A stretch of DNA of 64,000 bases from an uncultured Alphaproteobacteria bacterium (GTDB lineage: Bacteria; Pseudomonadota; Alphaproteobacteria; RF32; CAG-239), in assembly GCA_944393235.1 (NCBI GenBank), contig CALXZJ010000004.1, positions 4,162-68,161 of the forward strand. Direction: 5' to 3'. Below, piece by piece: positions 1,745 to 38,225 of this stretch. A model generated the notes under the pieces. It was not told the DNA's origin, did not search any database, and saw only the letters and a list, made by a program, of their open reading frames with translations. Every line of letters begins with the position of its first letter. The first letter of the stretch is position 1. Both the position numbers and the translations under genes were made by a program.

Positions 1745-4700
1745 ATGGACTTACGGACTTTAAAGGTATTAAGATTTTTTCATTTAATCAACAAGAAAGA
1801 ATATAATGAGAAACGGCAGATTGAACTTGTGAAAGCATCGCCGCTGTTTGATGCCAAGTGGTATTTGGAGCAAAACCCGGATGTCAAGGCCAAAAAAATC
1901 GGTGCAGCCAGGCATTATGTCAAATGGGGCTGGAAAGAAGGCCGCAACCCGGGTAAGGCATTTGATACAAAAGCCTATCTCAAACAATATCCCGAACTTT
2001 TAGAAAAAAACTGGTGCCCGCTGTTTCATTATATGCTTTTACACAAAGACTTAATTCTTCCGATAGATTGGCATGAAGTTTGGAGAAAATATTTCGGATA
2101 TATATATAAACTTTATGATGCATATGCCGTCAAATACGGGAAATACAAAGGGAAAAATCAAAACTATATTTTAATTGCCCGTTCAAAGTACTTTAACAAA
2201 CGCTGGTATTTAAAAATGTATCCGGATGTCAAAAAAGCCGGTGTCGATCCGGTAAAACATTATATGCAATTCGGGTGGAAAGAGGGGCGACATCCCGGAC
2301 CGAAATTTGATGGAAATGTATATCTTGATTTAAATGCCGATGTCAAACGAGCCAAAATAAATCCGCTGCTGCATTATGAAAAATATGGCAAAAAAGAAGG
2401 AAGAAAATTTAATATTACGCAAAATGTTTCCTTATCTCTCAGACGTAATTTTACTTTTGATGTGTATAAAGTATCAAGTGGTAATTTATATAAATTTGGA
2501 CATATAGTAAAGAATCAACCTTATTTTTCCATTATTATGCCAACATATAATCGCGATTTTTGCATTCAGAATGCCATACAATCTCTACTACATCAAACAT
2601 ATAAAAATTTTGAATTAATAATTGTTGATGATGGCTCGACAGACAATACAAAATCATTAATTCATACCATGTTTAATTTCGAGTTAGAATCCGGAAAAAT
2701 TAAATACATATACAAAGAAAATAGTGGTGTTTGTAAAACAAGGAATATAGGACTATCTCATGCTCATAATGAATGGATAGGATATTTAGATAGTGATAAT
2801 ATTTTGTTACCCCATTTTCTTGAAACGTTTGCTAAGGCTATTGTAAAAAACAAAAAAGCAAAAACTTTTTATGCTTGCTGGCAAAATTTCATTTCAAAAA
2901 AAATATTTAATCATAAATTTAATTACAACAAATTATGTGAGGAAAATTTTATAGATCTGGGAGTTTTTGTTCACCATAAGGAAGTCTATCAAGAATTCGG
3001 TGGCTTTGATGAGAAATTAACAAGATTGGTAGATTGGGAATTAATTTTACGCTATACACAAAAGTATGAACCTGTAATGTTGCCACATGTTGTAATGAGT
3101 TATAATGATACAAATGATTTTAAGCGCATTACAAATTCTATTTCATTAGATAATAATATGGCATATATTAAAAATAAATATTGTAAAAAATATAGTGTTT
3201 CATCAGGAAAAAGCGATTATGAATTAATTAAACAATCAAAATATTTTGATTCAGAATATTATTTGGCTAACAATCCTGATGTCAAGAAAGTCGGCGTAGA
3301 TCCGGTAAAACATTATCTCAAGTTCGGATGGAAAGAAAAGAGAACCCCTTCCTGTAATTGCGATGATATCGGATATTTGGAAAGGTATAAAAGTGTAAAA
3401 GCCGCAAACATAAATCCTTTGTTGCATTATGAGAAATATGGGAAATATCAGGGCTTTAGAATTGATGTTATTAAAGATTATTCGTTTTATGAACGCTTGC
3501 CGACATCAGAATACAAAAAAGAGCTTGCGCTTTGGTTTAAGGAAAAAACCGGAAAGAAATTGAATCTGAACAATCCGCAAACATATAACGAAAAGATTCA
3601 GTGGCTCAAACTTTATGATTCCACACCGATTAAAACCCGTCTGGCGGATAAATATCTGGTACGCGATTGGATAAAAGAAAAAATCGGCGAACAATATCTT
3701 ATCCCGCTCTTGGGCGTTTATGATAATTTTGATGAGATTGATTTTGCTAAATTGCCAAGCCGGTTTGTCATAAAAACAAATCATGGCAGCGGATATAATA
3801 TTATTGTTCCTGATAAATCGAAACTTGATTTAGCTGAGGCAAAACAAAAAGTTGATAAATGGATGAAAGAAAATTTCGCTTTCAAAGCAGGATTCGAACT
3901 ACAGTATCGAGACATGACGCCCAAAATCATTATTGAGAAATATATTGAAAATCAAAATGTGCAAGATTTATATGATTATAAGTTTTGGTGTTTCAATGGT
4001 AAAGTTAAATATATCCAGTTTTTATCAGAACGAAAAAATGGTCTGAAAATGGCTTTTTATAACACAAAATGGGAAAAACAAAATTTTGTATATAATTATC
4101 CGCTAGATACAAAAGATATCATAAAACCAGATAATTTGCACGATATGATTTTATTGGCGGAAAAACTATCTAAAGGCTTTAATCATGTCAGAATAGATTT
4201 TTATAGACTTGATGATGGAACAATTTATTTTGGGGAATATACTTTTACGAGTATGTCCGGTATCTGTAAATGGAATCTGAACAGTATAAATTCAGATTTT
4301 GGCAAATTCATCAAACTCCCTAAGCTCGCCTATGATATGGATCGCAAAGTATATTGCAAGCCTGAAGAGTGTTATAAACCCAACAAAATAGATATTAAAA
4401 GTATTTTAGCCCGTCCGGTTATACCAGATGACAGAAACCTGAAATTGACGATTGTCGTGCCGATATACAACGCTTTATCGGATGTGAAAAATTGTTTGAC
4501 CAGTTTGTTGGAAGCTAATTTGTTAAAACAAACCAAAGTCATATTGATGGATGATTGTTCAAACAAAGAAACCCAAAACTATTTGCAAAAATTTGCCAAT
4601 AAACATTCTAATTTCAAGTTATGCCGGAATAATCAAAATCTCGGTTTTATCAAAAATTGCAATAAAGGCATTGACCTGGCCAAAGGTGATATTGTCGTAT

Positions 4701-5239
4701 TGCTAAACAGTGATACAAAAGTCCCGCTTGGCTTTGACAAGCGTGTGTTGCAATGTTTCAAGTCGGACAAGAATATTGCTTTGGCTTCGCCTTTGAGCAT
4801 TCATTCCGGATTTTTCAAGATTCCCGAAAACAAAAAATACCAGTTGCCGCAGATAGATAAAATTGTGCAAAAAACTTCTGAAAACAAATATCCGCTGATA
4901 ACACCGGAAGGGTTTTGTTACGCGCTCCGCAAAGAAGTAACGGATAAAATCGGCAAATTAGATGAAATCTTCGGTATGGGGTATTGCGAAGAAGATGACT
5001 TGGATATGCGTGCTTTGCTGCATGGCTATCGCACGGTTTTAATTGATAATCTGATTGTTTATCACAAAAGCCATGCTTCTTTTTCATCAGAAAAAAGAGA
5101 GGAAATTTTGGAGCGGAACGTCATTAAATTTAAACGACGTTGGGATGTATACCAGCGTTTTGCACGTTTTGATATGAAAATGGACGAAACACTATCATAT
5201 TATAATAATAAATATAATAAATTAATTGGAAATATTTGA
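1745..5239 (+). CDS. Large multidomain glycosyltransferase. Architecture: N-terminal approx 60-aa repeats (HYxxxGWKEGRxP motif, at least 4 copies), then a GT2 domain, a TupA-like ATP-grasp domain, and a second GT2 domain.
   Basis: Two GT2-type signatures (IIMPTYNR...VDDGSTDNT and VVPIYNA...LMDDCSNKET); central region resembles TupA-like ATP-grasp proteins (NPQTYNEKIQWLKLYD...KTNHGSG); strong AT-rich promoter region upstream (1560-1740). Confidence 0.65.
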   Translation: MDLRTLKVLRFFHLINKKEYNEKRQIELVKASPLFDAKWYLEQNPDVKAKKIGAARHYVKWGWKEGRNPGKAFDTKAYLKQYPELLEKNWCPLFHYMLLHKDLILPIDWHEVWRKYFGYIYKLYDAYAVKYGKYKGKNQNYILIARSKYFNKRWYLKMYPDVKKAGVDPVKHYMQFGWKEGRHPGPKFDGNVYLDLNADVKRAKINPLLHYEKYGKKEGRKFNITQNVSLSLRRNFTFDVYKVSSGNLYKFGHIVKNQPYFSIIMPTYNRDFCIQNAIQSLLHQTYKNFELIIVDDGSTDNTKSLIHTMFNFELESGKIKYIYKENSGVCKTRNIGLSHAHNEWIGYLDSDNILLPHFLETFAKAIVKNKKAKTFYACWQNFISKKIFNHKFNYNKLCEENFIDLGVFVHHKEVYQEFGGFDEKLTRLVDWELILRYTQKYEPVMLPHVVMSYNDTNDFKRITNSISLDNNMAYIKNKYCKKYSVSSGKSDYELIKQSKYFDSEYYLANNPDVKKVGVDPVKHYLKFGWKEKRTPSCNCDDIGYLERYKSVKAANINPLLHYEKYGKYQGFRIDVIKDYSFYERLPTSEYKKELALWFKEKTGKKLNLNNPQTYNEKIQWLKLYDSTPIKTRLADKYLVRDWIKEKIGEQYLIPLLGVYDNFDEIDFAKLPSRFVIKTNHGSGYNIIVPDKSKLDLAEAKQKVDKWMKENFAFKAGFELQYRDMTPKIIIEKYIENQNVQDLYDYKFWCFNGKVKYIQFLSERKNGLKMAFYNTKWEKQNFVYNYPLDTKDIIKPDNLHDMILLAEKLSKGFNHVRIDFYRLDDGTIYFGEYTFTSMSGICKWNLNSINSDFGKFIKLPKLAYDMDRKVYCKPEECYKPNKIDIKSILARPVIPDDRNLKLTIVVPIYNALSDVKNCLTSLLEANLLKQTKVILMDDCSNKETQNYLQKFANKHSNFKLCRNNQNLGFIKNCNKGIDLAKGDIVVLLNSDTKVPLGFDKRVLQCFKSDKNIALASPLSIHSGFFKIPENKKYQLPQIDKIVQKTSENKYPLITPEGFCYALRKEVTDKIGKLDEIFGMGYCEEDDLDMRALLHGYRTVLIDNLIVYHKSHASFSSEKREEILERNVIKFKRRWDVYQRFARFDMKMDETLSYYNNKYNKLIGNI

Positions 5240-5251
5240 ATGAGGAAAGAC

Positions 5252-5968
5252 ATGAAAATCGCAATTCATTTTCATATATTTTATGAAGATTTATATTCAC
5301 AAGTAGCTGAATGTATTAAAAATATTGATGAGCCTTATGATTTATTTATATCATACGTAAATGAAGGAAGTTTTTTAAAAAAAATAATAACAGATTTTCC
5401 TAATGCCATAGTTTCTAAAGTCCCGAACAAAGGATTTGATGTGGGACCTTTTATAGACTTTATCAATCATTTGGATTTAAATAAATATACACATATTATA
5501 AAACTACATACAAAAAGAAATGTTCCTTATTATGATTACCAAAACAATTTTCCTATATATAATAATTTGTGGCGTGAATTGCTTTTGAATTTTATCCGAG
5601 TACCTGCCAATTGGCAGAGAACCAAAAGGTGTTTTTATAATTCTAAAGTAGCAATGGTAGCAGATGGAAGATTGATATTATACAAAGGTAAAAAAAATGA
5701 ATATCGAATATTTCAAGAAGCTGTAACATATGCAAAAAAACATTTACTTCATTTAAATAAATATCCGTTGTTTGTTGCCGGTACGATGTTTATGTCCAGA
5801 GCAGATATTTTTAAATCTATTCAAAACAAATATACAATTGATGATTTTGATGTGGTTAAATCACATGGTACAAGTTTGGCTCATATCTTTGAACGTTTGT
5901 TAGGGTTTTGCGCATGCACGAATGGAAATACTATTGTAGATTTTGCATCTACGGATAATCATTTGTAA
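5252..5968 (+). CDS. Rhamnan-synthesis RgpF-like polysaccharide biosynthesis protein (short form).
   Basis: N-terminal KIAIHFHIFYEDL motif typical of RgpF-family proteins; translationally coupled to the upstream GT (stop 5237-5239, RBS gaggaaaga before ATG 5252). Confidence 0.45.
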   Translation: MKIAIHFHIFYEDLYSQVAECIKNIDEPYDLFISYVNEGSFLKKIITDFPNAIVSKVPNKGFDVGPFIDFINHLDLNKYTHIIKLHTKRNVPYYDYQNNFPIYNNLWRELLLNFIRVPANWQRTKRCFYNSKVAMVADGRLILYKGKKNEYRIFQEAVTYAKKHLLHLNKYPLFVAGTMFMSRADIFKSIQNKYTIDDFDVVKSHGTSLAHIFERLLGFCACTNGNTIVDFASTDNHL

Positions 5969-11078: not shown

Positions 11079-13313
11079 TTACATAAACGAATACGGGTTA
11101 ATGTCAACTTCTACATGGACATTTTTAGGAACACTTATCGTTTTAAGCCAATTCTGTAATATCACCTGAATATTTATATTTCGTAAAGTTTTTAAAAGCA
11201 AACGATAGCGAAATTTTCCGCGCAGCATAAAAATCGGAGCAGGCGCCGGCCCTAAAACTTCAACGCCGTTTCCATGCGGGGCGCATTTGGCAAGCTCGGC
11301 GGCAACTTTAGAAGTTGTCTCAACATTAGTACCCGAAACAATCAGTGCGGCCAACTTTCCGTAAGGCGGCAAATGCAGCGTTTGACGGGATTTTTTTTCC
11401 AATTTAACAAATTCTTCGCGGTTGCCGTCAACCAACGCTTTTAGCACCGCGTTTTCCGGATAAAGCGTCTGCATATAGACCACGCCTTTTTTTTCAGCCC
11501 GACCGGCACGGCCTGAAACTTGCGATAATAGCTGAAACGTTTGCTCCGCAGCCCGCAAATCACTGCCCATCAGCCCTAAATCGGCATCGACGATTCCCAC
11601 CAGCGTTAATGCCGGAAAGTGGTGTCCTTTGGCTAAAATCTGCGTGCCGATGATAATGTCTGTTTCACCTTTTTCCATGCGGGATATGGCAGCCGAGATA
11701 TCATTAAAAGACGAGGCGGTATCGCTTGAAAGAATTTCCACCCGTGCTTCCGGAAAGCGCCCTTTAACTTCTTCGGCGATTCGTTCTACCCCCGGACCGC
11801 AAGCCGTCAATCCGGATTCGGAGCCGCATTCGGGGCAAACTTTCGGGATATTGGTCATATAGCCGCAATGGTGGCAAATAAGTTTGCCTGATTTTAAATG
11901 TTCGGTTAACCATGCCGTGCAGTGCGGACATTGGATTCGGTGGCCGCAATCACGACAGATAACCAAAGGCGCATAGCCGCGGCGGTTTAAAAACAGCATA
12001 GACTGTTCGCCTTTTTGCAAGTTTTCTGCCAAAGCCGCGCATAAAGAAGGCGCCAACCATGACATTTGCGGTTTTGGCGGCGTGCTTTGTTCGGCATTGT
12101 CCGATTCTTTTCCGCTTTTAAGCGGTGGCAGCCATTTTACCGGTTTGTCTTTTTTTAAATCAATAATTTTGATTTCTGGCATTTGAGCGGCGGCATAACG
12201 GCTTAAAAGCTTGACGCAGCCGTATTTGCCGCTTTCAACATTAACAATGGTTTCCAAATCGGGCGTGGCAGTAGAAAGAACAATCGGAATATTTTCCAGC
12301 TTGGCGCGCACCACCGCTATATCGCGTGCTTGATAGTTGACGGCGTCTTCTTGTTTAAAAGAATGGTCATGGCTTTCATCAACCACGATCAACCCCAAAT
12401 CGGCATAAGGTAAAAACAAAGCACTGCGGGCACCCACCAAAACTTTGGCACGGTTTTCGGCAACGGCTCTCCATGTTTCGGTACGTTCGCTCAAACTTAA
12501 TGAAGAATGCCATTTTGCCGGTTTGACGCCAAAACGTTTTTCAAACCGAGCTAACCACTGTGTGGTCAAAGAAATTTCCGGCACTAAAATCAACACTTGT
12601 TTTCCGGTTTTAAGAACTTTGGCGGCGGCTTCAAGATAAACTTCGGTTTTGCCCGAACCGGTCACGCCGTCCAGCAATGTAACTGAAAAACCGGCTTCGC
12701 ATTTTGCACATAAATAATCGGCGGCGGCTTGTTGCTCGGCGGTCAGTTGCACTTTATGAAAATCAAGTTTTGGCGGCAGAAATTCTTTTTGTTTTTTAAC
12801 CGGCAGCGGTTCAAGCATGCCGACATCTATCATGGTTTTAATAACGCTCTGGCTCACGCCTGCGCCTTTTGCGATTTCCGCGCGGGAGTAGGGGCCGTGG
12901 CGCAAAAGCTCAATCACCCGCCAGCGGGCGGAAGAATTTTTAAGCTTTGCTTCAGCCAGAGTTTTGCCGGTAAGCTTGTATAAAATATTGACTTTTGGAT
13001 CTTCAAACACCCCTTTGGCGCACAACACCATTTTTAAGATTAAGCCTTTATATGCCAAATTATAATCAGCCGTCCATTCAACCAACTTCATCAATTCCGG
13101 CTGCAAAGGCGGCAGATTAAATGTTTCAATCACACTTTTGATTTTGTTATTATCCAAGTTGGAAGATTTTCCGATTTTCCACGCCACGCCGATTTGTTGC
13201 TCGCGGCCAAACGGCACACGCACAATTTGTCCCAAAACAACATCGTCCTGGACCTTATAATCAAAAACATCGTTAAAAGGCAGCGGCAGCAAAACGCCGA
13301 CAATTTTTTCCAT
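11079..13313 (-). CDS. priA: Primosomal protein N' (PriA helicase).
   Basis: DEAH helicase motifs (GVTGSGKTEVY, DESHD), Cys-rich zinc-binding region (CxxC...CxxC...CxxC); start moved to the internal ATG (MEKIVGVLLP...), which has better context than the ORF-track start. Confidence 0.9.
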   Translation of the reverse strand: MEKIVGVLLPLPFNDVFDYKVQDDVVLGQIVRVPFGREQQIGVAWKIGKSSNLDNNKIKSVIETFNLPPLQPELMKLVEWTADYNLAYKGLILKMVLCAKGVFEDPKVNILYKLTGKTLAEAKLKNSSARWRVIELLRHGPYSRAEIAKGAGVSQSVIKTMIDVGMLEPLPVKKQKEFLPPKLDFHKVQLTAEQQAAADYLCAKCEAGFSVTLLDGVTGSGKTEVYLEAAAKVLKTGKQVLILVPEISLTTQWLARFEKRFGVKPAKWHSSLSLSERTETWRAVAENRAKVLVGARSALFLPYADLGLIVVDESHDHSFKQEDAVNYQARDIAVVRAKLENIPIVLSTATPDLETIVNVESGKYGCVKLLSRYAAAQMPEIKIIDLKKDKPVKWLPPLKSGKESDNAEQSTPPKPQMSWLAPSLCAALAENLQKGEQSMLFLNRRGYAPLVICRDCGHRIQCPHCTAWLTEHLKSGKLICHHCGYMTNIPKVCPECGSESGLTACGPGVERIAEEVKGRFPEARVEILSSDTASSFNDISAAISRMEKGETDIIIGTQILAKGHHFPALTLVGIVDADLGLMGSDLRAAEQTFQLLSQVSGRAGRAEKKGVVYMQTLYPENAVLKALVDGNREEFVKLEKKSRQTLHLPPYGKLAALIVSGTNVETTSKVAAELAKCAPHGNGVEVLGPAPAPIFMLRGKFRYRLLLKTLRNINIQVILQNWLKTISVPKNVHVEVDINPYSFM

Positions 13314-13411
13314 CCATATACCTCTACTGACAACAGATGTTATGAGATTTGCCGGCAACTTTCCACAAATATACCTTTTTTCCCACAGATATTATTTGCT
13401 AAAAAATAATT

Positions 13412-13985
13412 TTAAACCTGTGGCCGCATAAGATAAATAATTAAATAACAGGATATTTCAGAGTTACACATATTGCAAAAGTCATCAATTTCAGACAAAG
13501 TGACCGTACCTAAACAGTTGTTGTTTGTACAATATTGACTGCCCCAAAGTTGGGATGCATTGTAACTTTCTTCATCAGCCTGGGAGCGAAGTTGTAAAGA
13601 ATATAAATTATTGGCATTTTCTTTGGCGACTAAAATCATGTTACGGCAAATTTCAACAGCTCTTTGAGATGCTTTGCCATTAGAAATATCCATGCGGGTT
13701 GATACCTGAAAAAGCCCGATCCAAATCCGGTTTGATTTGGATAGCATTGTTTAAAAGTATATTAAAAGATTCGGCTTGTCTATTGAGCTTATACTTAAAC
13801 ATCGCTTTGGAATAACCGCTGATAGCCCCGACGCTTAAAACACCAATTATCGCCAGTACGCCGAGCATTTCAACCATACTTCTCCCGCATAGAGCCACAT
13901 CTGCTTGCCTCCTTTTATTGTGTGCTGGAGAAGAAAAACTAAAAAAATTGAACAAATTCATCAAAAGAACTCCTGAAAACTGCAA
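13412..13985 (-). pseudogene. Type IV pilin-like gene, copy 1, truncated and frameshifted. The N-terminal part is in one frame (13680-13985) and the C-terminal Cys-motif part in another frame (13412-13747). The central variable region of about 70 aa, present in the other copies, is missing.
   Basis: N-terminal ...CGRSMVEMLGVLAIIGVLSVGAISGYSKAM is identical in kind to the other four copies. The second frame encodes AVEICRNMILVAKENANNLY...C.x4.CLGTVTLSEIDDFCNMC, which aligns with the C-terminal conserved region of copies 4 and 5. The two frames overlap at 13680-13747. Confidence 0.55.
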
Positions 13986-14001
13986 AATAAACGTATTTGC
14001 T

Positions 14002-14056
14002 CGTCATTCTAAACTGTTTTTTTTTTTTGCAATTTTAAAGAGTCTGGTGGGGATAA
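14002..14056 (-). promoter_or_regulatory. Conserved pilin promoter block, copy 1, with a 12-nt homopolymeric T tract (A on the coding strand) at 14017-14028.
   Basis: Block cgtcattctaaac(c/t)g-Tn-gcaattttaaagagtctggtggggataa is repeated upstream of all five pilin-like genes. On the coding strand it reads TTGC-A(n)-CGGTT-TAGAAT (-35-like TTGCAA, -10-like TAGAAT). Confidence 0.4.
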
Positions 14057-14300
14057 GTTTCTACTTATTATTTACTGTCATGCCACTGCCGAGCATTGCT
14101 CGGCAGTTTAGGCATCTCTTCTCCAAACATGCAACAGACGCCTAACCTCGAGTGCTGCGCACTCTCAGGGCGTGACAGTGTTGTATCATCACCCCATGAA
14201 CCGACGCCAGCCCCAATCCTCGTCTCCCACGAGGATACGCCAGTATCCGAGTTTTAGAGGCCCTTCTTTTTTCTTTTGTCATCTCTTCGAGGTACTGAAA
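14057..14300. repeat. Mosaic of short hairpin-forming repeat modules (modules A, B, C, D) upstream of pilin copy 1.
   Basis: Modules gtcatgccactgccgagcattgctcggcagtttaggcatctc, catgcaacagacgcctaacc, caccccatgaaccgacgcc and ccccaatcctcgtctcccacgaggatacgccagtatccgagtt recur in different order upstream of the other pilin copies (30251-30480, 38270-38360, 59791-59940, 61501-61600). Confidence 0.5.
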
Positions 14301-14364
14301 ATCTCAGGGAATACCAGACCCAGCCAAAGAATCGCCAATTATATTGATTTATTTAATATTAAAA

Positions 14365-14393
14365 AACCTGCCTTATCGTATCTAAGGCAGGTA
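14365..14393 (-). terminator. Rho-independent terminator of the 929-aa gene.
   Basis: Hairpin acctgcctta...taaggcaggt followed (on the minus strand) by a T-run; lies immediately 3' of the stop at 14409. Confidence 0.55.
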
Positions 14394-14408
14394 AAATAAA
14401 CGATTTTA

Positions 14409-17198
14409 TTATTTTGTATTTTGCCCGTATTTTTTCAATATGCGTGCAGCTTCCCGATCATCAAGAATTTGTTCTTGATCTGGAGAATTTTTACCTTCAA
14501 TCTGCGACCATGCCGAAAAAATAACTTTACGGACACGAGATTTTCTTGGCGGAGTATAATCCACAACCGGATTTGGATTATCCGGAACAGGTATCGGTCC
14601 GGGAGGTGTCGGAAGTATCGGATCAGGTTCCGGCTCTGGTTCAGGTTCTGGCTCTGGTTCCGGTGTCGGCTCTGGTTCTGGTTCAGGTTCAGGTTCCGGT
14701 GTCGGCTCTGGTGTTGGCTCAGGTTCAGGTTCCGGCTCCGGTCTGTCAATCCGCCGCCATTGACCGTCGTCATCATGACAATCTTTAGCCAAACTAAGCC
14801 CTGTCAATTGAGTGTTTTCTGTGCCGGTTGCCAAAATAGCATCGGTTTTATCCAACATATTGTTGACAGCCAAAGCTTGTTGATCACTGATTTTGTTGCC
14901 GCATCCCAACAAACCAATAAGAGCTTCCATCTCTTGCTGATATTGGTAAAAACGCTGATTGCTATGAATAATTGTGATAATGGACGAAGTTTCTTTATTA
15001 TCAAATTCATTAGGGAACAGCTCTTTTAACCCATTCTTTATTTCGCCTTTTCCGGCGTAAGTGTTTTCCTCGGCAAAAGAAACCAAATTGCGCATTTGAT
15101 CTTCATTTAACCCCAAATCAAGCCTATCAAAACGCTTTTCCAGATAGTCATGTCCGGAAGGCGTTTCTCTTAATGTCCCGTCACCCACCTCATAAGCTTT
15201 GCGCATAAAAGCGTACAAACGGTTAAACTTATAAATGATTTCTTCTTTGGTTTTGCCGGGGAACTGATCCATAGAACCTTCCAGATTCCTATAAACTCGA
15301 TCAAGCGTAACTTCATCGCCGGTTGCTGATTTAAGAGTACCTTCGGTTGTTTGCACCAAAATATTATACTCTCTTCTGGAAATGCCCATTTCTTCACGAG
15401 AAGTATAAGTTCTTGGGAACAACCCTCCGTCAGTATTTTCTGCCGAGGCGTCAGAAACAACATTTGCTTGAGATGCAACAGTTGAACCGCCTTGAGCTTG
15501 AACAACAGTTGTATCTGTTGCCGTTGAATCTTTTACGCCAAACAAACGACCAAGCCAGCTGCCTCGGTTTTGTTTTTCTGGTGTTTCAACATTTACGGGA
15601 GCATCGCTTGAAACAGCTGCCTCAGCATTGCTTTGTCCGCGCGAAAAACCTAACTCTTGAAACACAACGTTAAAACCAAGCCCTATCAAAGCTGAAGTCG
15701 CAGCCTGTTTAAATTCTGTACTTTTTTCTTTATTGTCAGGATCTTTGACAGCAACAGCATATGCAATTGAAGCATCGGTCAATTGGGCAACCGTTGCCGT
15801 TCCTGCACGACCCAAACTGATAGCGTGGCGTGTTTCAGCAATATTAGAAGCCAAAGATACATTCAAACCATCTTTAGCGCCGCCGACCAATGTATTGGCG
15901 GCATCGGCAGCCTCCAAGCCGTCTTTCAGCCAGGCAAAGCCGGCAACCGCCAACCCGGTATTTAAGACACCGCCGATAATGTATGAACGCTTGTCTTTAC
16001 GACTGTTCATTTTGTTTTTCCACGCCTGTTTAAGGGCATCCATAAATTTCAAAGGCGTTTCGCCTTTTTCTTTTTTCTTACGATTAATTCGGCGCATTTC
16101 GGCAATAATCGGATAAACCCAAGCGCCGGCAGTATGATATGCTGCATAAGCCGCAATTGCCGGTACCAAGACGGGAGCGGCTGCCGCACCTGCTGCGCCG
16201 GCTGCCGCAGCTGCCGTCCAGTAACCAAATGCAGCATTGGCGGCAACATTGCCGATTAATTTGAATTTATTATCACTAAAGCTGCCTTTAATATTTTTCC
16301 ATATTTCATAACGATTTTTTGAAATATGATTGGCCAGTTCTTCAAATTTGTTCTTTTTTCTTTGTAAAGAAGCGGCAAGCTTGGAAAATTCAGATTCAAC
16401 GGTTTTTCCTGCTGCTTTGGCTTTATCAACAGCTTGGTTAACAAAAGTTTGCGCTTTACGTTGCAAGGCACTTATATAACGTTCAATTTGAACAGCCGTT
16501 TCGGCGCAGCAGCTTAAAATACTGTCAACCGTCATCTTGATTTTTTCTTTGCCCTGCAAAATTGAACCAAAAACTTCAGTTGCTTTTTTGCTTTGCCGGT
16601 TAACAAAATCTCTATATTCCGGGCTGCCGATAACTTGTTCTTCCTTTGTTGGTTTGTCTAAAGAAGAGGCAATGGTTGTTTGTGCAAAATCCGCAAAGAA
16701 AATTGTTTTAATTTCGTCTTTTAAAATATTATTGCGCTCGGTTTTGCTCATATTTGCAAAATCTTTATTGCCGGCCAAAATGGCTTCGGCTTTCATTTTA
16801 GCGCCGTCAAACAACAAGCTCAGATATTCATTTTTGGTTTTATCATCAACAATTTTTTCCTGATCGCCTTTGCCGTCAATAATTTCGACGCGATCTAAAA
16901 TATCGGCAATATCTTTGTTTTTTGCTCTAAATTCTTCAAAAGTCAGATCAGCGGTGTTTTCTTCCATTTTTTTATAATTGTCCGCATACACCTTGGCAGA
17001 ATCTTCTGTCAGATTATTTTCTGTCTCAAAGGATTTTAAAGCATTCAAAGCATCTTTTAAGGCCGGATTGGTCGGATCTTGTTCGCGTACGATCCGCATG
17101 GCTTCTTGCAGTTGACTTAATGGGCATAAATAAATATCGCCTTTTAAGATTTTCAAGGCTTCGTCAAAAGTCATTTTACCGGTTGTTTCTTTTGCCAT
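14409..17198 (-). CDS. Large secreted/membrane-associated repeat protein (929 aa). It has Gly/Ala-rich hydrophobic hairpin segments and a C-terminal (PE/PT)n low-complexity region. It is a paralog of the 1317-aa protein at 38754-42707.
   Basis: N-terminus MAK..., K/E-rich helical regions, central AAAAAGAAGAAAAPVLVPAIAAYAAY hydrophobic stretch followed by a basic patch, C-terminal PEPEPEPTPEPTPEPEPEPEPEP; no recognisable enzymatic motifs. Confidence 0.65.
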   Translation of the reverse strand: MAKETTGKMTFDEALKILKGDIYLCPLSQLQEAMRIVREQDPTNPALKDALNALKSFETENNLTEDSAKVYADNYKKMEENTADLTFEEFRAKNKDIADILDRVEIIDGKGDQEKIVDDKTKNEYLSLLFDGAKMKAEAILAGNKDFANMSKTERNNILKDEIKTIFFADFAQTTIASSLDKPTKEEQVIGSPEYRDFVNRQSKKATEVFGSILQGKEKIKMTVDSILSCCAETAVQIERYISALQRKAQTFVNQAVDKAKAAGKTVESEFSKLAASLQRKKNKFEELANHISKNRYEIWKNIKGSFSDNKFKLIGNVAANAAFGYWTAAAAAGAAGAAAAPVLVPAIAAYAAYHTAGAWVYPIIAEMRRINRKKKEKGETPLKFMDALKQAWKNKMNSRKDKRSYIIGGVLNTGLAVAGFAWLKDGLEAADAANTLVGGAKDGLNVSLASNIAETRHAISLGRAGTATVAQLTDASIAYAVAVKDPDNKEKSTEFKQAATSALIGLGFNVVFQELGFSRGQSNAEAAVSSDAPVNVETPEKQNRGSWLGRLFGVKDSTATDTTVVQAQGGSTVASQANVVSDASAENTDGGLFPRTYTSREEMGISRREYNILVQTTEGTLKSATGDEVTLDRVYRNLEGSMDQFPGKTKEEIIYKFNRLYAFMRKAYEVGDGTLRETPSGHDYLEKRFDRLDLGLNEDQMRNLVSFAEENTYAGKGEIKNGLKELFPNEFDNKETSSIITIIHSNQRFYQYQQEMEALIGLLGCGNKISDQQALAVNNMLDKTDAILATGTENTQLTGLSLAKDCHDDDGQWRRIDRPEPEPEPEPTPEPTPEPEPEPEPEPTPEPEPEPEPEPEPDPILPTPPGPIPVPDNPNPVVDYTPPRKSRVRKVIFSAWSQIEGKNSPDQEQILDDREAARILKKYGQNTK
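14620..14740. repeat. Hexanucleotide (ggttcN / ggctct) tandem array encoding the (Pro-Glu/Pro-Thr)n tract of the 929-aa protein.
   Basis: About 20 consecutive 6-bp units are visible directly in the sequence. The array is in frame and could expand or contract by recombination or slippage without a frameshift. Confidence 0.7.
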
Positions 17199-29510: not shown

Positions 29511-30158
29511 TTATACAAAAATCCAAATCCGGAATGTGGTGGCCGTACTTTCTTCGGTAAATCCTCGGCACAATGCATCAATTTTATCCAAATCCAACGC
29601 CGCTATGCAGCGCCCGCTTGGCTGGCATGAATCTTGTCCGTAATAAATGGTTTGTGTATTTTCATTTATACCCATGCCGTAGGTTTCAAGAGCATGTAAA
29701 ATAGGGGCATTTTCTTTTCCGGTTTTAACAACGTTCCGGCAGATTTCCACATTTAAATCATCTTCTCCGGGGTTGAGGTATACTTCGGCCATCATGGCAT
29801 TTCGCTGCGGTTTGCCGGCAAGAACGGTTGTATTCTGGCTTCCGGTGACATAAAAAGCAACCCGCAGACCAAACACATCATATACATAGGACTTGGTATC
29901 AGGCCGTATCATTTCTTTGGGAACAGCGCCAAGAGAAATAAAAGTACTGGTAATATTATTGGTAATGGTATTGTCAATCGTGATTTTGCCGGCATATAAT
30001 GCTGCCGTATTGAAAATGGTATTTAATTGCTCGGCCTGTTTATTGAGTTTATATTTAAGCATTGCCTTGGAATAACCGGCAATTGCCCCGACGGAAAGCA
30101 CGCCGATAATCGCCAGCACGCCGAGCATTTCCACCATACTTCTACCATTTTCGCGCAT
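29511..30158 (-). CDS. Type IV pilin-like protein, copy 2 (MRENG / RSMVEMLGVLAIIG... prepilin N-terminus).
   Basis: Short leader ending in Gly, Glu at +5, 20-aa hydrophobic helix matching the type IV pilin alpha1-N consensus (E-L/M-x-x-V-x-A-I-I-G-x-L); C-terminal Cys pair; RBS gggaga 7 nt upstream of ATG 30158. Confidence 0.75.
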   Translation of the reverse strand: MRENGRSMVEMLGVLAIIGVLSVGAIAGYSKAMLKYKLNKQAEQLNTIFNTAALYAGKITIDNTITNNITSTFISLGAVPKEMIRPDTKSYVYDVFGLRVAFYVTGSQNTTVLAGKPQRNAMMAEVYLNPGEDDLNVEICRNVVKTGKENAPILHALETYGMGINENTQTIYYGQDSCQPSGRCIAALDLDKIDALCRGFTEESTATTFRIWIFV

Positions 30159-30195
30159 AACATTCTCCCAAAACTGCAAAATAAATGTATTTGCT

Positions 30196-30250
30196 CGTCA
30201 TTCTAAACCGTTTTTTTTTTTTGCAATTTTAAAGAGTCTGGTGGGGATAA
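30196..30250 (-). promoter_or_regulatory. Conserved pilin promoter block, copy 2, with 12-nt T tract at 30211-30222.
   Basis: Same block as at 14002-14056; coding strand TTGC-A12-CGGTT-TAGAAT about 40 nt upstream of the start codon. Confidence 0.4.
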
Positions 30251-37514: not shown

Positions 37515-38141
37515 TTATGACACTCTTTCCATATTCCATAAAATTTGGAACGAACAAGATGTTGTATCGTCGCAAGTTTTACAAAGTTCATGCATTTGTG
37601 ACAAACTTAAATCTTTTAAGCATGTTCGGTTATTTGTACAATGGGCATCGCCAAAAGCGCGATTGGTATGCTCACCTGAAACATCTTCATTATCTCTTAC
37701 AAACATTGTTTGCCACAGCAAAGCACTGCGTAGTTTAGACATTTGAAATAAGTTCATGCATATATCATAAGTATTTTGATTGATAAAAATTGCCATGCCG
37801 AAATACTGTTGTATGCCTGGTTCTAAATTATGAAATAATGAAACTTTATTATTAAAAACATCATAAATATAATAAGGGTTTTGATCTTTTATCATCTCAA
37901 CCGGTATAATACCCAATTTACTAAATAATGGAGCCATATTGTAATCTTGATGTCCCAATCTGTCTAAGTTGTCATAATGCAGCGTGGCATAATCTAAAAT
38001 GCTGCCGATTTGTTCGGTCTGTTTGTTGAGCTTATATTTCATCATCGCCTTGGAATAACCGGCAATTGCCCCGACGCTTAATACTCCAACAATTGCTAAA
38101 ACCCCGAGCATTTCAACCATACTTCTACCACATTCGCGCAT
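37515..38141 (-). CDS. Type IV pilin-like protein, copy 3 (MRECG / RSMVEMLGVLAIVG...).
   Basis: Same prepilin N-terminus; C-terminal CTNNRTCLKDLSLSQMHELCKTC motif; RBS ggagag upstream of ATG 38141. Confidence 0.75.
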   Translation of the reverse strand: MRECGRSMVEMLGVLAIVGVLSVGAIAGYSKAMMKYKLNKQTEQIGSILDYATLHYDNLDRLGHQDYNMAPLFSKLGIIPVEMIKDQNPYYIYDVFNNKVSLFHNLEPGIQQYFGMAIFINQNTYDICMNLFQMSKLRSALLWQTMFVRDNEDVSGEHTNRAFGDAHCTNNRTCLKDLSLSQMHELCKTCDDTTSCSFQILWNMERVS

Positions 38142-38179
38142 AACATTCTCTCCAAAATTGCAAAAAATACCTGTTTTCA

Positions 38180-38225
38180 CGTCATTCTAAACCGTTTTTT
38201 TTTTTGCAACTTTAAAGTTTGGTAG
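38180..38225 (-). promoter_or_regulatory. Conserved pilin promoter block, copy 3 (distal half diverged), T tract 11 nt at 38195-38205.
   Basis: cgtcattctaaaccg-T11-gcaactttaaag. Confidence 0.35.

What the first reader, a model, noticed from the sequence alone, without database searches (positions are those of the whole stretch)
13412..13985. Pilin copy 1 is internally deleted and split over two frames; a possible silent, donor or decaying cassette
The N-terminal portion (13680-13985) terminates after ...FNILLNNAIQIKPDLDRAFSGINPHGYF. The conserved C-terminal Cys-motif portion (AVEICRNMILVAKENANNLY...C-x4-C...C-x2-C) continues in a different frame (13412-13747). The central roughly 70 residues present in copies 4 and 5 are absent. 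The copy nevertheless retains the full promoter block and the mosaic repeats. It may therefore serve as a sequence reservoir for recombination into expressed copies, or it may be a recent casualty.
Basis: seen in the sequence. Interest (0 to 1): 0.55.

Follow-up and report, generated by a model that had tools for sequence, protein, structure and literature searches.

The report
Pilin gene broken by one deletion
One of five pilin genes in this uncultured gut alphaproteobacterium has lost 146 bases from its middle, a real and common dead allele that circulates alongside intact versions in the same species, and nothing marks it as a dedicated silent cassette.

Summary
At 13412-13985 (minus strand), a pilin-like gene is split into two overlapping reading frames. 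The cause is one 146-bp deletion with its junction at 13705|13704. It removes 49 codons, not about 70, and shifts the frame. There is no homopolymer and no microhomology at the junction. Contigs of the same species (96-98% identity) carry intact 210-231-aa genes at the same spot between a 929-aa repeat protein and priA. One of them matches the window's 5' half almost base for base. The deletion is not an assembly error: 11 further contigs from at least four sample series or read archives have the identical junction. Deletion-type fragments lie on 17 contigs and intact alleles on 14. Flanking SNPs are shuffled between deleted and intact alleles, so the deletion is probably an older polymorphism rather than a private recent loss. 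The intact protein models confidently as a type IVb-like pilin. The deletion removes the loop helix and most of four strands (the fourth partly), so no pilin can be made. The copy keeps its promoter-like block, ribosome-binding site and signal peptide. Its variable part has not been copied into the other four genes, and no G-quadruplex motif exists. A Neisseria-style silent cassette is therefore not supported. Verdict: an ordinary null allele, well documented.

The parts
14366..14392 (-). Terminator-like hairpin plus T-run that ends the upstream 929-aa repeat-protein gene. It marks the upstream limit of the c1 unit.
   Evidence: 10-bp stem, T-rich tail; conserved in L082, L096 and L098
14211..14251 (-). 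Copy number and sequence vary between alleles and copies.
   Evidence: a similar unit lies upstream of c2 (14282-14211 vs 30349-30277, 81%)
14075..14178 (-). Hairpin-rich block conserved upstream of the pilin copies of this species. It folds as a three-branch structure. It is absent upstream of pilins in sister species. Function unknown.
   Evidence: (z = -4.5 on 336 nt); no Rfam family
14006..14059 (-). Conserved promoter-like core: TTATCCCCACCAGACTCTTTAAAA, TTGCAA (14032-14027), an A12 tract (14028-14017), CAGTT, TAGAAT (14011-14006). The spacer is 15 nt, so the 16-18-nt consensus scan did not call it.
   Evidence: 96% identical to the c2 block over 84 nt
13704..13961 (-). Native 5' part of the gene. 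It runs from ATG 13961 (AGGAG 8 nt upstream; alternative GTG 13898), through a 26-aa leader ending in G (13886-13884), then the mature N-terminus RSMVEMLGVLAIIGVL... through ...DRAFSG. That is 86 codons.
   Evidence: identical to intact P0124 over this span; gene callers called the same 93-aa ORF in L086 and other contigs
13719..13742 (-). Perfect 9-bp inverted repeat inside the coding sequence (ATCCAAATC-AAACCG-GATTTGGAT) followed by a T-run. It ends 13 nt before the deletion junction and is also present in intact alleles.
13704..13705 (-). Deletion junction. 146 nt present in intact conspecific alleles are missing between these two bases. No shared bases at the breakpoints.
13680..13703 (-). 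Out-of-frame tail of the N ORF (INPHGYF plus stop).
13412..13702 (-). Native 3' part of the gene in the other frame: STRMDISNGKASQRAVEICRN...C-x4-C...C-x2-C-x5-C...MRPQV plus stop (96 codons). It has no signal peptide of its own and no recognisable RBS before ATG 13693.
   Evidence: 100% identical to residues 115-210 of intact P0002; no stop codons in any of 12 deletion contigs

Best explanation
Copy 1 is a loss-of-function allele of a type IVb-like pilin gene that sits between a 929-aa repeat-protein gene and priA.

**What happened (shown)**
- A single 146-bp deletion removed codons 66-114 and shifted the frame.
- The ancestral state is the intact gene. The lost segment encodes positions conserved across the family.

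**What it can still make (inferred)**
- From its promoter-like block, the locus can at most yield a prepilin stump. This would be the leader, 60 native residues that are essentially the N-terminal helix, and 7 junk residues.
- The 3' remnant has no signal peptide or ribosome-binding site and is most likely untranslated.

**Status in the population**
- The allele arose once (identical junction everywhere, no microhomology).
- It now segregates at roughly even frequency with intact alleles in this uncultured gut alphaproteobacterial species.
- It has since recombined with intact alleles on both sides.

**Why it is tolerated (inferred)**
- The genome carries at least five other intact paralogues. 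These include the closest one, next to dnaK outside the window.
- Whether the high frequency reflects drift or selection for losing this surface antigen is not resolved.
For: **Single deletion**
- Alignments of the window with conspecific loci L082-L085 and L096 show one contiguous 146-nt gap and otherwise near-identity.
- 146 = 3 x 48 + 2, which gives the frameshift.

**Same locus, same species**
- Flanking genes are the same, and identity is 96-98% over about 10 kb.
- L096 and P0124 have the same long leader and 5' half as the window.

**Not an artefact**
- The junction is identical in L086-L095 and L098. These come from ONAT22-1, BRZ and ERZ1626xxxx assemblies and a Logan assembly of ERR4096626.

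**Frequency**
- Deletion-type C fragments are on 17 contigs. Intact alleles are on 14.

**Intact is ancestral and functional**
- Sister species L002 and L003 have full-length pilins directly upstream of priA.
- Intact alleles show dN/dS of 0.13-0.33.
- The lost segment contains invariant P80 and D92.

**Structural consequence**
- The deletion removes helix 70-75, strands 84-86, 89-91 and 97-104, and most of strand 110-118.

**Recombination**
- Deleted and intact alleles each occur with both states of SNP blocks about 90 nt upstream and about 125 nt downstream of the junction.

**Relaxed constraint (weak)**
- A deletion-specific I->T change sits at a nearly invariant helix position in the L090 group.
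Against: - Nothing contradicts the deletion itself.
- **Against 'pure junk':** none of 12 deletion contigs has a further stop or frameshift in either remnant. All keep the promoter-like block and start codon where that part is covered. About 50% is high for a neutral null allele.
- These points are weak. Total divergence among deletion alleles is only about 1-2%, so few disrupting mutations are expected.
- The four-gamete argument could be inflated by chimeric metagenome contigs. L099 is one such case.
- Expression, processing and the presence of a pilus machinery could not be tested. No machinery genes lie in the window.
Confidence: 0.85

Rival explanations
1. Silent or donor cassette. The broken copy is kept as a sequence reservoir that donates its intact variable 3' part to expressed pilin genes by gene conversion, as Neisseria pilS does for pilE.
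For: - The 3' remnant is free of stops in all 12 deletion contigs and identical to that of intact alleles.
- Alleles at this locus are mosaics. There are three leader types, and L087 carries a 5' patch resembling copy 5.
- Conserved blocks such as EICRNMILVAKENA are shared with the closest paralogue and could serve as crossover points.
Against: - It retains the promoter-like block, RBS, start and constant 5' region. pilS copies lack these (PMC6796969).
- Four other copies in the window are intact and individually promoted.
- The c1 variable part is 27-34% identical to them, with no shared DNA tract beyond the constant 5' region and promoter.
- There is no canonical G4 motif.
- The only contig that looked like a c1 3' donation (L099/P0003) also swaps the upstream neighbour. 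It is best read as a chimeric assembly through a 41-nt identical block.
- Intact alleles of the same gene are about as common, so the broken state is a polymorphism, not a fixed design.
Confidence: 0.06
2. Functional truncated pilin. The still-promoted N ORF makes a 67-residue helix-only 'mini-pilin', similar in length to Geobacter PilA-N. It would either assemble or act as a dominant inhibitor of piliation, and selection for this keeps the allele common.
For: - The promoter-like core, RBS, start, leader, G(-1) and E(+5) are all intact.
- The N ORF is uninterrupted in every deletion contig.
- The allele frequency is about one half.
- A weak sequence match of the N-terminus to Geobacter 'geopilin domain 1' exists (7tgg, E 0.9). 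It is not significant.
Against: - The 3' remnant has no signal sequence, so no PilA-C-like partner can be exported.
- The 7-residue tail is frameshift junk.
- A deletion-specific I->T change at a nearly invariant helix residue is carried by the most frequent deletion haplotype. That suggests relaxed rather than maintained constraint.
- There are no expression data.
Confidence: 0.05
3. Selected loss. The null allele is common because losing this particular pilin variant is advantageous in some hosts, for example through escape from antibody or from a pilus-dependent phage. It would be a balanced presence/absence polymorphism. This concerns why the allele is frequent and is compatible with the best explanation.
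For: - Frequency is roughly half across several cohorts.
- The allele persists on several recombinant backgrounds.
- The deleted segment is the part of the gene with the highest dN/dS between intact alleles (0.77 against 0.24 for the whole gene and 0.09 for priA; small counts).
- The sister-species orthologue L002 has three invariant N-terminal positions changed, which may be a second independent inactivation.
Against: - Counts are contigs, not independent strains.
- There is no test against neutral expectation.
- Redundancy with five or more paralogues makes neutral loss equally plausible.
Confidence: 0.3
4. Assembly or sequencing artefact. The split would be an indel error or a mis-join.
For: - The window's provenance is unknown.
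- Contigs of this species often break or mis-join at the repeated promoter block (L001 ends there; L086 and L099 have odd neighbours).
Against: - The 146-nt gap is identical in 12 assemblies made by different groups and pipelines.
- There is no repeat or homopolymer at the junction that could mislead an assembler.
- Independent gene calls give the same two 93-aa ORFs.
Confidence: 0.01

Closest known systems
Type IVb pilins (ETEC CofA / CFA-III pilin, Vibrio cholerae TcpA, Salmonella Typhi PilS)
   Same: This applies to the intact allele.
- It has a class III signal with G(-1) and E(+5).
- It has a roughly 50-residue N-terminal helix followed by an alpha-beta globular domain.
- It is about 205 residues when mature and has C-terminal cysteines.
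- Some alleles have a 26-40-aa leader, as in type IVb pilins.
   Different: - Sequence identity is only 8-11%.
- The +1 residue is Arg.
- It does not reach the curated cut-offs of PF07963 or TIGR02532.
- The genes are scattered singly among housekeeping genes, not in a pilus operon.
- There are five or more paralogues, each with the same promoter-like block.
- Copy 1 itself lacks most of the globular domain.
Neisseria pilE / pilS pilin antigenic variation
   Same: - There are several pilin-related sequences per genome.
- Conserved blocks are interspersed with variable ones.
- Alleles are mosaic.
- One copy cannot be expressed as a pilin.
   Different: - pilS copies lack the promoter, RBS and constant 5' region (PMC6796969). 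c1 has all three.
- There is no single expression locus.
- No G4-forming sequence is present (required in Neisseria, PMC3547852).
- No c1-templated tracts appear in the other copies.
- The broken state is polymorphic within the species.
Non-reverting pilin deletion variants and null alleles of surface-antigen genes (for example, nonpiliated gonococcal pilE variants)
   Same: An internal deletion destroys the major-subunit gene and yields a stable non-producing allele. Such variants are frequent in gonococcal genome collections (PMC13017665).
   Different: - The window allele comes from gut metagenomes, not from laboratory passage.
- It is shared across hosts and cohorts.
- It sits in a family with redundant paralogues.
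Geobacter sulfurreducens split pilin PilA-N / PilA-C
   Same: A short helix-only N-terminal pilin ORF is immediately followed by an ORF that encodes the C-terminal globular part.
   Different: - In Geobacter the two genes are a fixed, evolved arrangement. Both products are exported and assemble together (own knowledge; the PilA-N/PilA-C terminology is used in PMC9207759).
- Here the split is a frameshifting deletion that removes 49 core residues.
- The 3' ORF has no export signal.
- Intact alleles coexist in the species.

Membership tests
Type IV pilin / pseudopilin superfamily (for the gene family to which c1 belongs) | Class III signal peptide: a short or long leader ending in Gly, with Glu at +5 of the mature protein | tested here: met
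   G|RSMVEM is present in all five copies and in 88 aligned homologues. E10 is invariant, and G5 is nearly invariant (at least 90%).
Type IV pilin / pseudopilin superfamily (for the gene family to which c1 belongs) | Match to curated N-terminal methylation-domain models (PF07963, TIGR02532) above their cut-offs | tested here: not met
   PF07963 scores 12.7-14.9 bits against a cut-off of 21.2. TIGR02532 scores about 10-12 bits against 16.3.
Type IV pilin / pseudopilin superfamily (for the gene family to which c1 belongs) | Long hydrophobic N-terminal helix packed on an antiparallel beta-sheet (pilin fold) | tested here: met
Type IV pilin / pseudopilin superfamily (for the gene family to which c1 belongs) | Processing by a prepilin peptidase and assembly by a type IV pilus or type II secretion machinery | not testable with these tools
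   No machinery genes were found among the window's larger ORFs. The rest of the genome is not available.
Functional pilin gene (copy 1 specifically) | One uninterrupted reading frame that encodes the signal, the helix and the complete globular domain | tested here: not met
   A 146-nt deletion and frameshift are present. Residues 66-114 are missing, including invariant P80 and D92.
Neisseria-type silent pilin cassette (pilS-like donor) | Lacks the promoter, RBS and constant 5' coding region | tested here: not met
   c1 has the conserved promoter-like core, AGGAG plus ATG, the leader and the constant N-terminus. The criterion comes from PMC6796969.
Neisseria-type silent pilin cassette (pilS-like donor) | Its variable segments are found copied into an expression locus | tested here: not met
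   The c1 variable region is 27-34% identical at the protein level to c2-c5. No DNA match exists beyond the promoter and the constant 5' region. The one apparent hybrid, L099, is probably a chimeric contig.
Neisseria-type silent pilin cassette (pilS-like donor) | A cis-acting G-quadruplex-forming sequence near the recipient gene | tested here: not met
   The regex (G3+N1-7)x3G3+ finds nothing on either strand of the window. Non-canonical G4s were not examined.
Pseudogene / null allele | A disabling lesion relative to intact orthologues or alleles, real in the DNA and not restored by any known recoding | tested here: met
   Intact alleles occupy the same locus. The junction is reproduced in 11 other contigs. 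The missing 49 codons cannot be restored by frameshifting.
Pseudogene / null allele | Relaxed selective constraint on the remnants | tested here: inconclusive
   A few deletion-specific non-synonymous changes were seen (I->T at a nearly invariant site, A->T, I->M, R->G), against about three synonymous changes. The counts are too small.

The most novel reading that the evidence does not exclude
The deletion allele is not junk but a selected variant. Its still-promoted 5' ORF would yield a processed, helix-only mini-pilin of about 67 residues. This product would either be incorporated into filaments or block their assembly. The species would then hold a balanced polymorphism between a full pilin and a truncated modulator at one locus.
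Probability: 0.05. Interest if true: 0.6.

Novelty: new member of a known kind. Interest (0 to 1): 0.27.

Why it matters
- The finding itself is modest. It documents, at base-pair resolution, a common presence/absence-type polymorphism in a surface-filament gene of an uncultured gut alphaproteobacterium.
- It shows that the split is biological, not an assembly error.
- It cautions annotators that the two 93-aa 'hypothetical proteins' called in many metagenomes are the halves of one broken pilin.
- It also draws attention to the surrounding system, which is uncharacterised. This is a dispersed family of at least six type IVb-like pilin genes, each behind the same poly-A-containing promoter-like block, with mosaic leaders. 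That system could be a phase- and antigen-variable surface system in a widespread gut lineage.

Tried and rejected
- **One-base frameshift idea.** I first thought GINPHG might align with the family's LIPDGM motif and that a 1-nt slip in a T3 run caused the frame change. The alignment with intact alleles showed a clean 146-nt deletion instead.
- **Exact-protein look-ups.** Look-ups with the mechanical ORF starts failed. They succeeded once the ATG starts likely to be chosen by gene callers were used.
- **JGI metagenome scan.** A scan with the C part found nothing. The lineage is represented in ENA and Logan assemblies instead.
- **Rfam.** The gathering threshold on the whole window and an E-value search on 13900-14420 gave no family for the upstream block.
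- **Promoter scan.** The consensus scan does not call the TTGCAA/TAGAAT pair because its spacer is 15 nt. 'Promoter' therefore remains an inference from conservation and position.
- **G4 search.** Nothing was found.
- **Excised segment.** A search for the 146-nt segment elsewhere in the window found only a 21-nt match to the conserved IYDVFNN codons of copy 3.
- **P0003/L099.** It looked like a natural hybrid between the dnaK-locus paralogue and c1. I rejected it as evidence because the contig also switches upstream neighbour across a 41-nt identical block.
- **Literature.** A search for pilins of gut RF32-type Alphaproteobacteria returned nothing relevant.

Full report
**What is in the window**

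On the minus strand, two overlapping ORFs occupy 13680-13985 and 13412-13747.
- The first encodes a leader followed by G|RSMVEMLGVLAIIGVLSVGAISGYSKAM... and stops after ...DRAFSGINPHGYF.
- The second, in another frame, carries ...STRMDISNGKASQRAVEICRNMILVAKENANNLY... and the cysteine motifs C-x4-C and C-x2-C-x5-C.
- tblastn of both pieces against the window finds four full-length paralogues: 29511-30179, 37515-38180, 59070-59693 and 60686-61438. Their N parts are 69-81% identical to copy 1 and their C parts 27-34%.

**Source organism and locus**

- The gene lies between a 929-aa protein with PE/PT repeats (14409-17198) and priA (11079-13358).
- A priA-based scan of one genome per species returned only uncultured gut Alphaproteobacteria MAGs from humans, deer and other hosts. 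The best match was at 95% amino-acid identity.
- In the nearest species, L002 and L003, a full-length pilin gene sits directly upstream of priA. L004 has one separated from priA by two inserted genes.
- A pilin at this position is therefore ancestral.

**The lesion**

A protein search with a repaired c1 sequence found 210-295-aa proteins that are identical or nearly identical to c1 on both sides of the break. Their contigs (L082-L085) carry the gene at the same place between the repeat protein and priA. They are 96-98% identical to the window over about 10 kb, so they belong to the same species.

The DNA alignment shows one contiguous gap of 146 nt in the window and nothing else.
- The junction is GGGCTTTTTCAGG|TATCAACCCGC at 13705|13704.
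- 146 = 3 x 48 + 2, so a single event both removes residues E66-I114 and shifts the frame.
- The breakpoints share no bases, and there is no homopolymer.
- The 146 nt are not found elsewhere in the window.
- The missing stretch is 49 residues, not about 70.
- The last seven residues of the N ORF and the first fifteen of the C ORF are frame-shifted read-through.

**Real, not an artefact**

- Exact look-ups of the two 93-aa ORFs, as gene callers would start them, hit other assemblies. Further look-ups of cluster members added more.
- Eleven further contigs (L086-L095, L098) carry the identical junction. They come from ONAT22-1, BRZ and ERZ1626xxxx assemblies and a Logan assembly of ERR4096626.
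- Their identity to the window ranges from 100% (L088) to 95.9% (L087).
- In the clustered protein collection, deletion-type C fragments (eight sequence variants) lie on 17 contigs. Intact alleles lie on 14.
- P0124 and P0125 (231 aa) are intact alleles with exactly the window's long leader. L096 is nearly base-for-base identical to the window upstream of the junction.

**Age and recombination**

- Deleted and intact alleles each occur with both states of a SNP block about 90 nt upstream (GCG ATG TTT AAG versus GC[CA] ATG ATG AA[AG]). The same holds for a block about 125 nt downstream (TCC CAG GCT versus TCT CAA GTT).
- L087 keeps the junction but has a 5' coding patch with many synonymous differences that resembles copy 5.
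- An identical junction without microhomology points to a single origin followed by recombination with intact alleles.
- Caveat: metagenome contigs can be chimeric. L099 demonstrably joins the 5' half of another paralogue to the c1 3' half across a 41-nt identical block and also swaps the upstream gene. I do not use it as evidence.

**What the intact gene is**

- Curated models do not reach threshold (PF07963 at 13-15 bits against 21.2; TIGR02532 at about 10-12 bits against 16.3).
- Even so, the G(-1)/E(+5) motif is conserved in 88 homologues (E10 is invariant; G5 is present in at least 90%).
- An AlphaFold model of P0002 built on that alignment is confident (pLDDT 86.4, pTM 0.79). It shows a helix at 13-62 followed by a beta-sheet.
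- Intact alleles evolve under purifying selection (dN/dS 0.13-0.33, against 0.09 for priA). The segment later deleted is the least constrained (0.77, small counts).
- The deletion removes helix 70-75, strands 84-86, 89-91 and 97-104, and most of strand 110-118. It also removes invariant P80 and D92.
- Even an in-frame version could not fold as a pilin head.

**What the broken copy can still do (inference)**

- It retains the block shared by all copies: TTATCCCCACCAGACTCTTTAAAA-TTGCAA-A tract-CAGTT-TAGAAT (14059-14006), plus AGGAG and ATG 13961.
- If this block is a promoter, the locus would give an 93-aa prepilin stump (26-aa leader, 60 native mature residues, 7 junk residues).
- The consensus scan does not call the block, because the spacer is 15 nt.
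- The 3' remnant has no signal peptide and no obvious RBS.
- No pilus machinery genes lie in the window.

**Silent-cassette hypothesis**

In Neisseria, silent copies lack the promoter, RBS and constant 5' region, and they donate variable segments to one expression locus. That process depends on a G4 element (PMC6796969, PMC3547852).

Copy 1 fails each testable criterion.
- It has the promoter-like block and the constant region.
- There are four other intact, separately promoted copies.
- No c1 variable tract occurs in them.
- There is no canonical G4 motif.
- The broken state is a within-species polymorphism.

Any homologous sequence can in principle recombine, and the mosaic leaders show that these genes do exchange 5' segments. 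Nothing, however, marks c1 as a dedicated reservoir.

**Why the null allele is common**

This is unresolved.
- Redundancy makes neutral loss plausible. The window has four intact copies, and a sixth paralogue, P0005, lies next to dnaK in the same samples as L085, L096 and L098.
- Selection for antigen or phage-receptor loss is also plausible. The high frequency, the variability of the deleted segment, and a possibly independent degeneration of the orthologue in L002 (GRLLVDMLC in place of GRSMVEMLG) fit this but do not prove it.

**Verdict**

The 'decaying copy' reading is right in kind but wrong about recency. The 'silent donor cassette' reading is not supported, and an assembly error is excluded. 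This is an ordinary pseudogene-type allele in an otherwise interesting, uncharacterised pilin family.

Noticed in passing
window 14006-14032, 30200-30226, 38183-38209, 59735-59761, 61440-61466 (minus strand); also L002, L003, L005, L008, L009: Every pilin copy, in this and in sister species, has TTGC followed by an A10-A15 tract, then C(A/G)GTT and TAGAAT. Tract length differs between copies (A12, A12, A11, A11, A10). It also differs between the otherwise identical contigs L082 (A11) and L083 (A12). The implied spacer of 13-15 nt is shorter than optimal. This is a candidate slipped-strand phase-variable promoter, comparable from my own knowledge to the poly-A promoters of Mycoplasma vlp genes. 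Not tested.
   Followed up: partly
window 14075-14178 and 14211-14251 (minus strand); equivalents upstream of c2-c5: A hairpin-rich block lies upstream of the promoter-like core (RNA fold z-score -4.5 on 336 nt, three-branch shape), together with short double-hairpin repeat units. The repeats vary in number and order between copies and between alleles (L082 and L085 have extra units). The block is species-specific, being absent upstream of pilins in L002, L008 and L009, and has no Rfam match. Whether it acts as DNA or RNA is unknown.
   Followed up: partly
window 13887-13961 and c5 61298-61438; L082, L085, L096: Three leader types occur at the same priA-adjacent locus in one species: a short MRENG, a 26-aa MNLFNFFSFSSPAHNKRRQADVALCG, and a roughly 41-aa MIQSIF...AALCG like that of copy 5. 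The long forms look like insertions between the RBS and the cleavage site, and they contain a second RBS-like site plus GTG/TTG. This points to cassette-like exchange of 5' ends between paralogues.
   Followed up: partly
L100-L103 (outside the window): A sixth pilin paralogue (P0005, 251 aa) lies between an NTP-transferase gene and dnaK. It occurs in the same samples that yielded the c1 loci L085, L096 and L098. It is the closest relative of c1 and shares near-identical blocks with it (AESFN.LLNNAIQIKP, EICRNMILVAKENA).
   Followed up: partly
L099 (ERZ16268047 scaffold_48664); L086: L099 joins the upstream gene and 5' half of the dnaK-locus paralogue to the 3' half of c1 and priA across a 41-nt identical stretch. 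L086 carries the c1 deletion allele behind a different upstream neighbour. Both are probably chimeric assemblies through shared blocks, but real rearrangements are not excluded. L001 ends inside the c1 upstream block.
   Followed up: partly
L002 7147-7896: The priA-adjacent pilin of the sister species reads GRLLVDMLCVLAIIG where all other family members have GRSMVEMLGVLAIIG. Three invariant positions are changed, including E+5 to D. This may be an independent inactivation at the same locus.
   Followed up: no
window 13719-13742 (minus strand): A perfect 9-bp inverted repeat followed by a T-run lies inside the coding sequence and ends 13 nt before the deletion junction. It is also present in intact alleles. 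It might have favoured the deletion through replication stalling, but this is speculation.
   Followed up: no
window 14409-17198 (minus strand): A 929-aa protein has an alanine-rich hydrophobic middle and a long (PE/PT)n repeat near the C-terminus. It has no Pfam domain apart from a below-cut-off compositional match to PARP repeats. It is conserved next to the pilin in all conspecific contigs, with length varying from 929 to 933 aa.
   Followed up: no
window 1745-5968: A low-GC stretch (31-32% against 38-49% elsewhere) encodes a 1164-aa multi-domain glycosyltransferase/ATP-grasp protein and an RgpF-like protein. It is probably a horizontally acquired surface-polysaccharide module. More glycosyltransferases lie at 45215-48165.
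   Followed up: no
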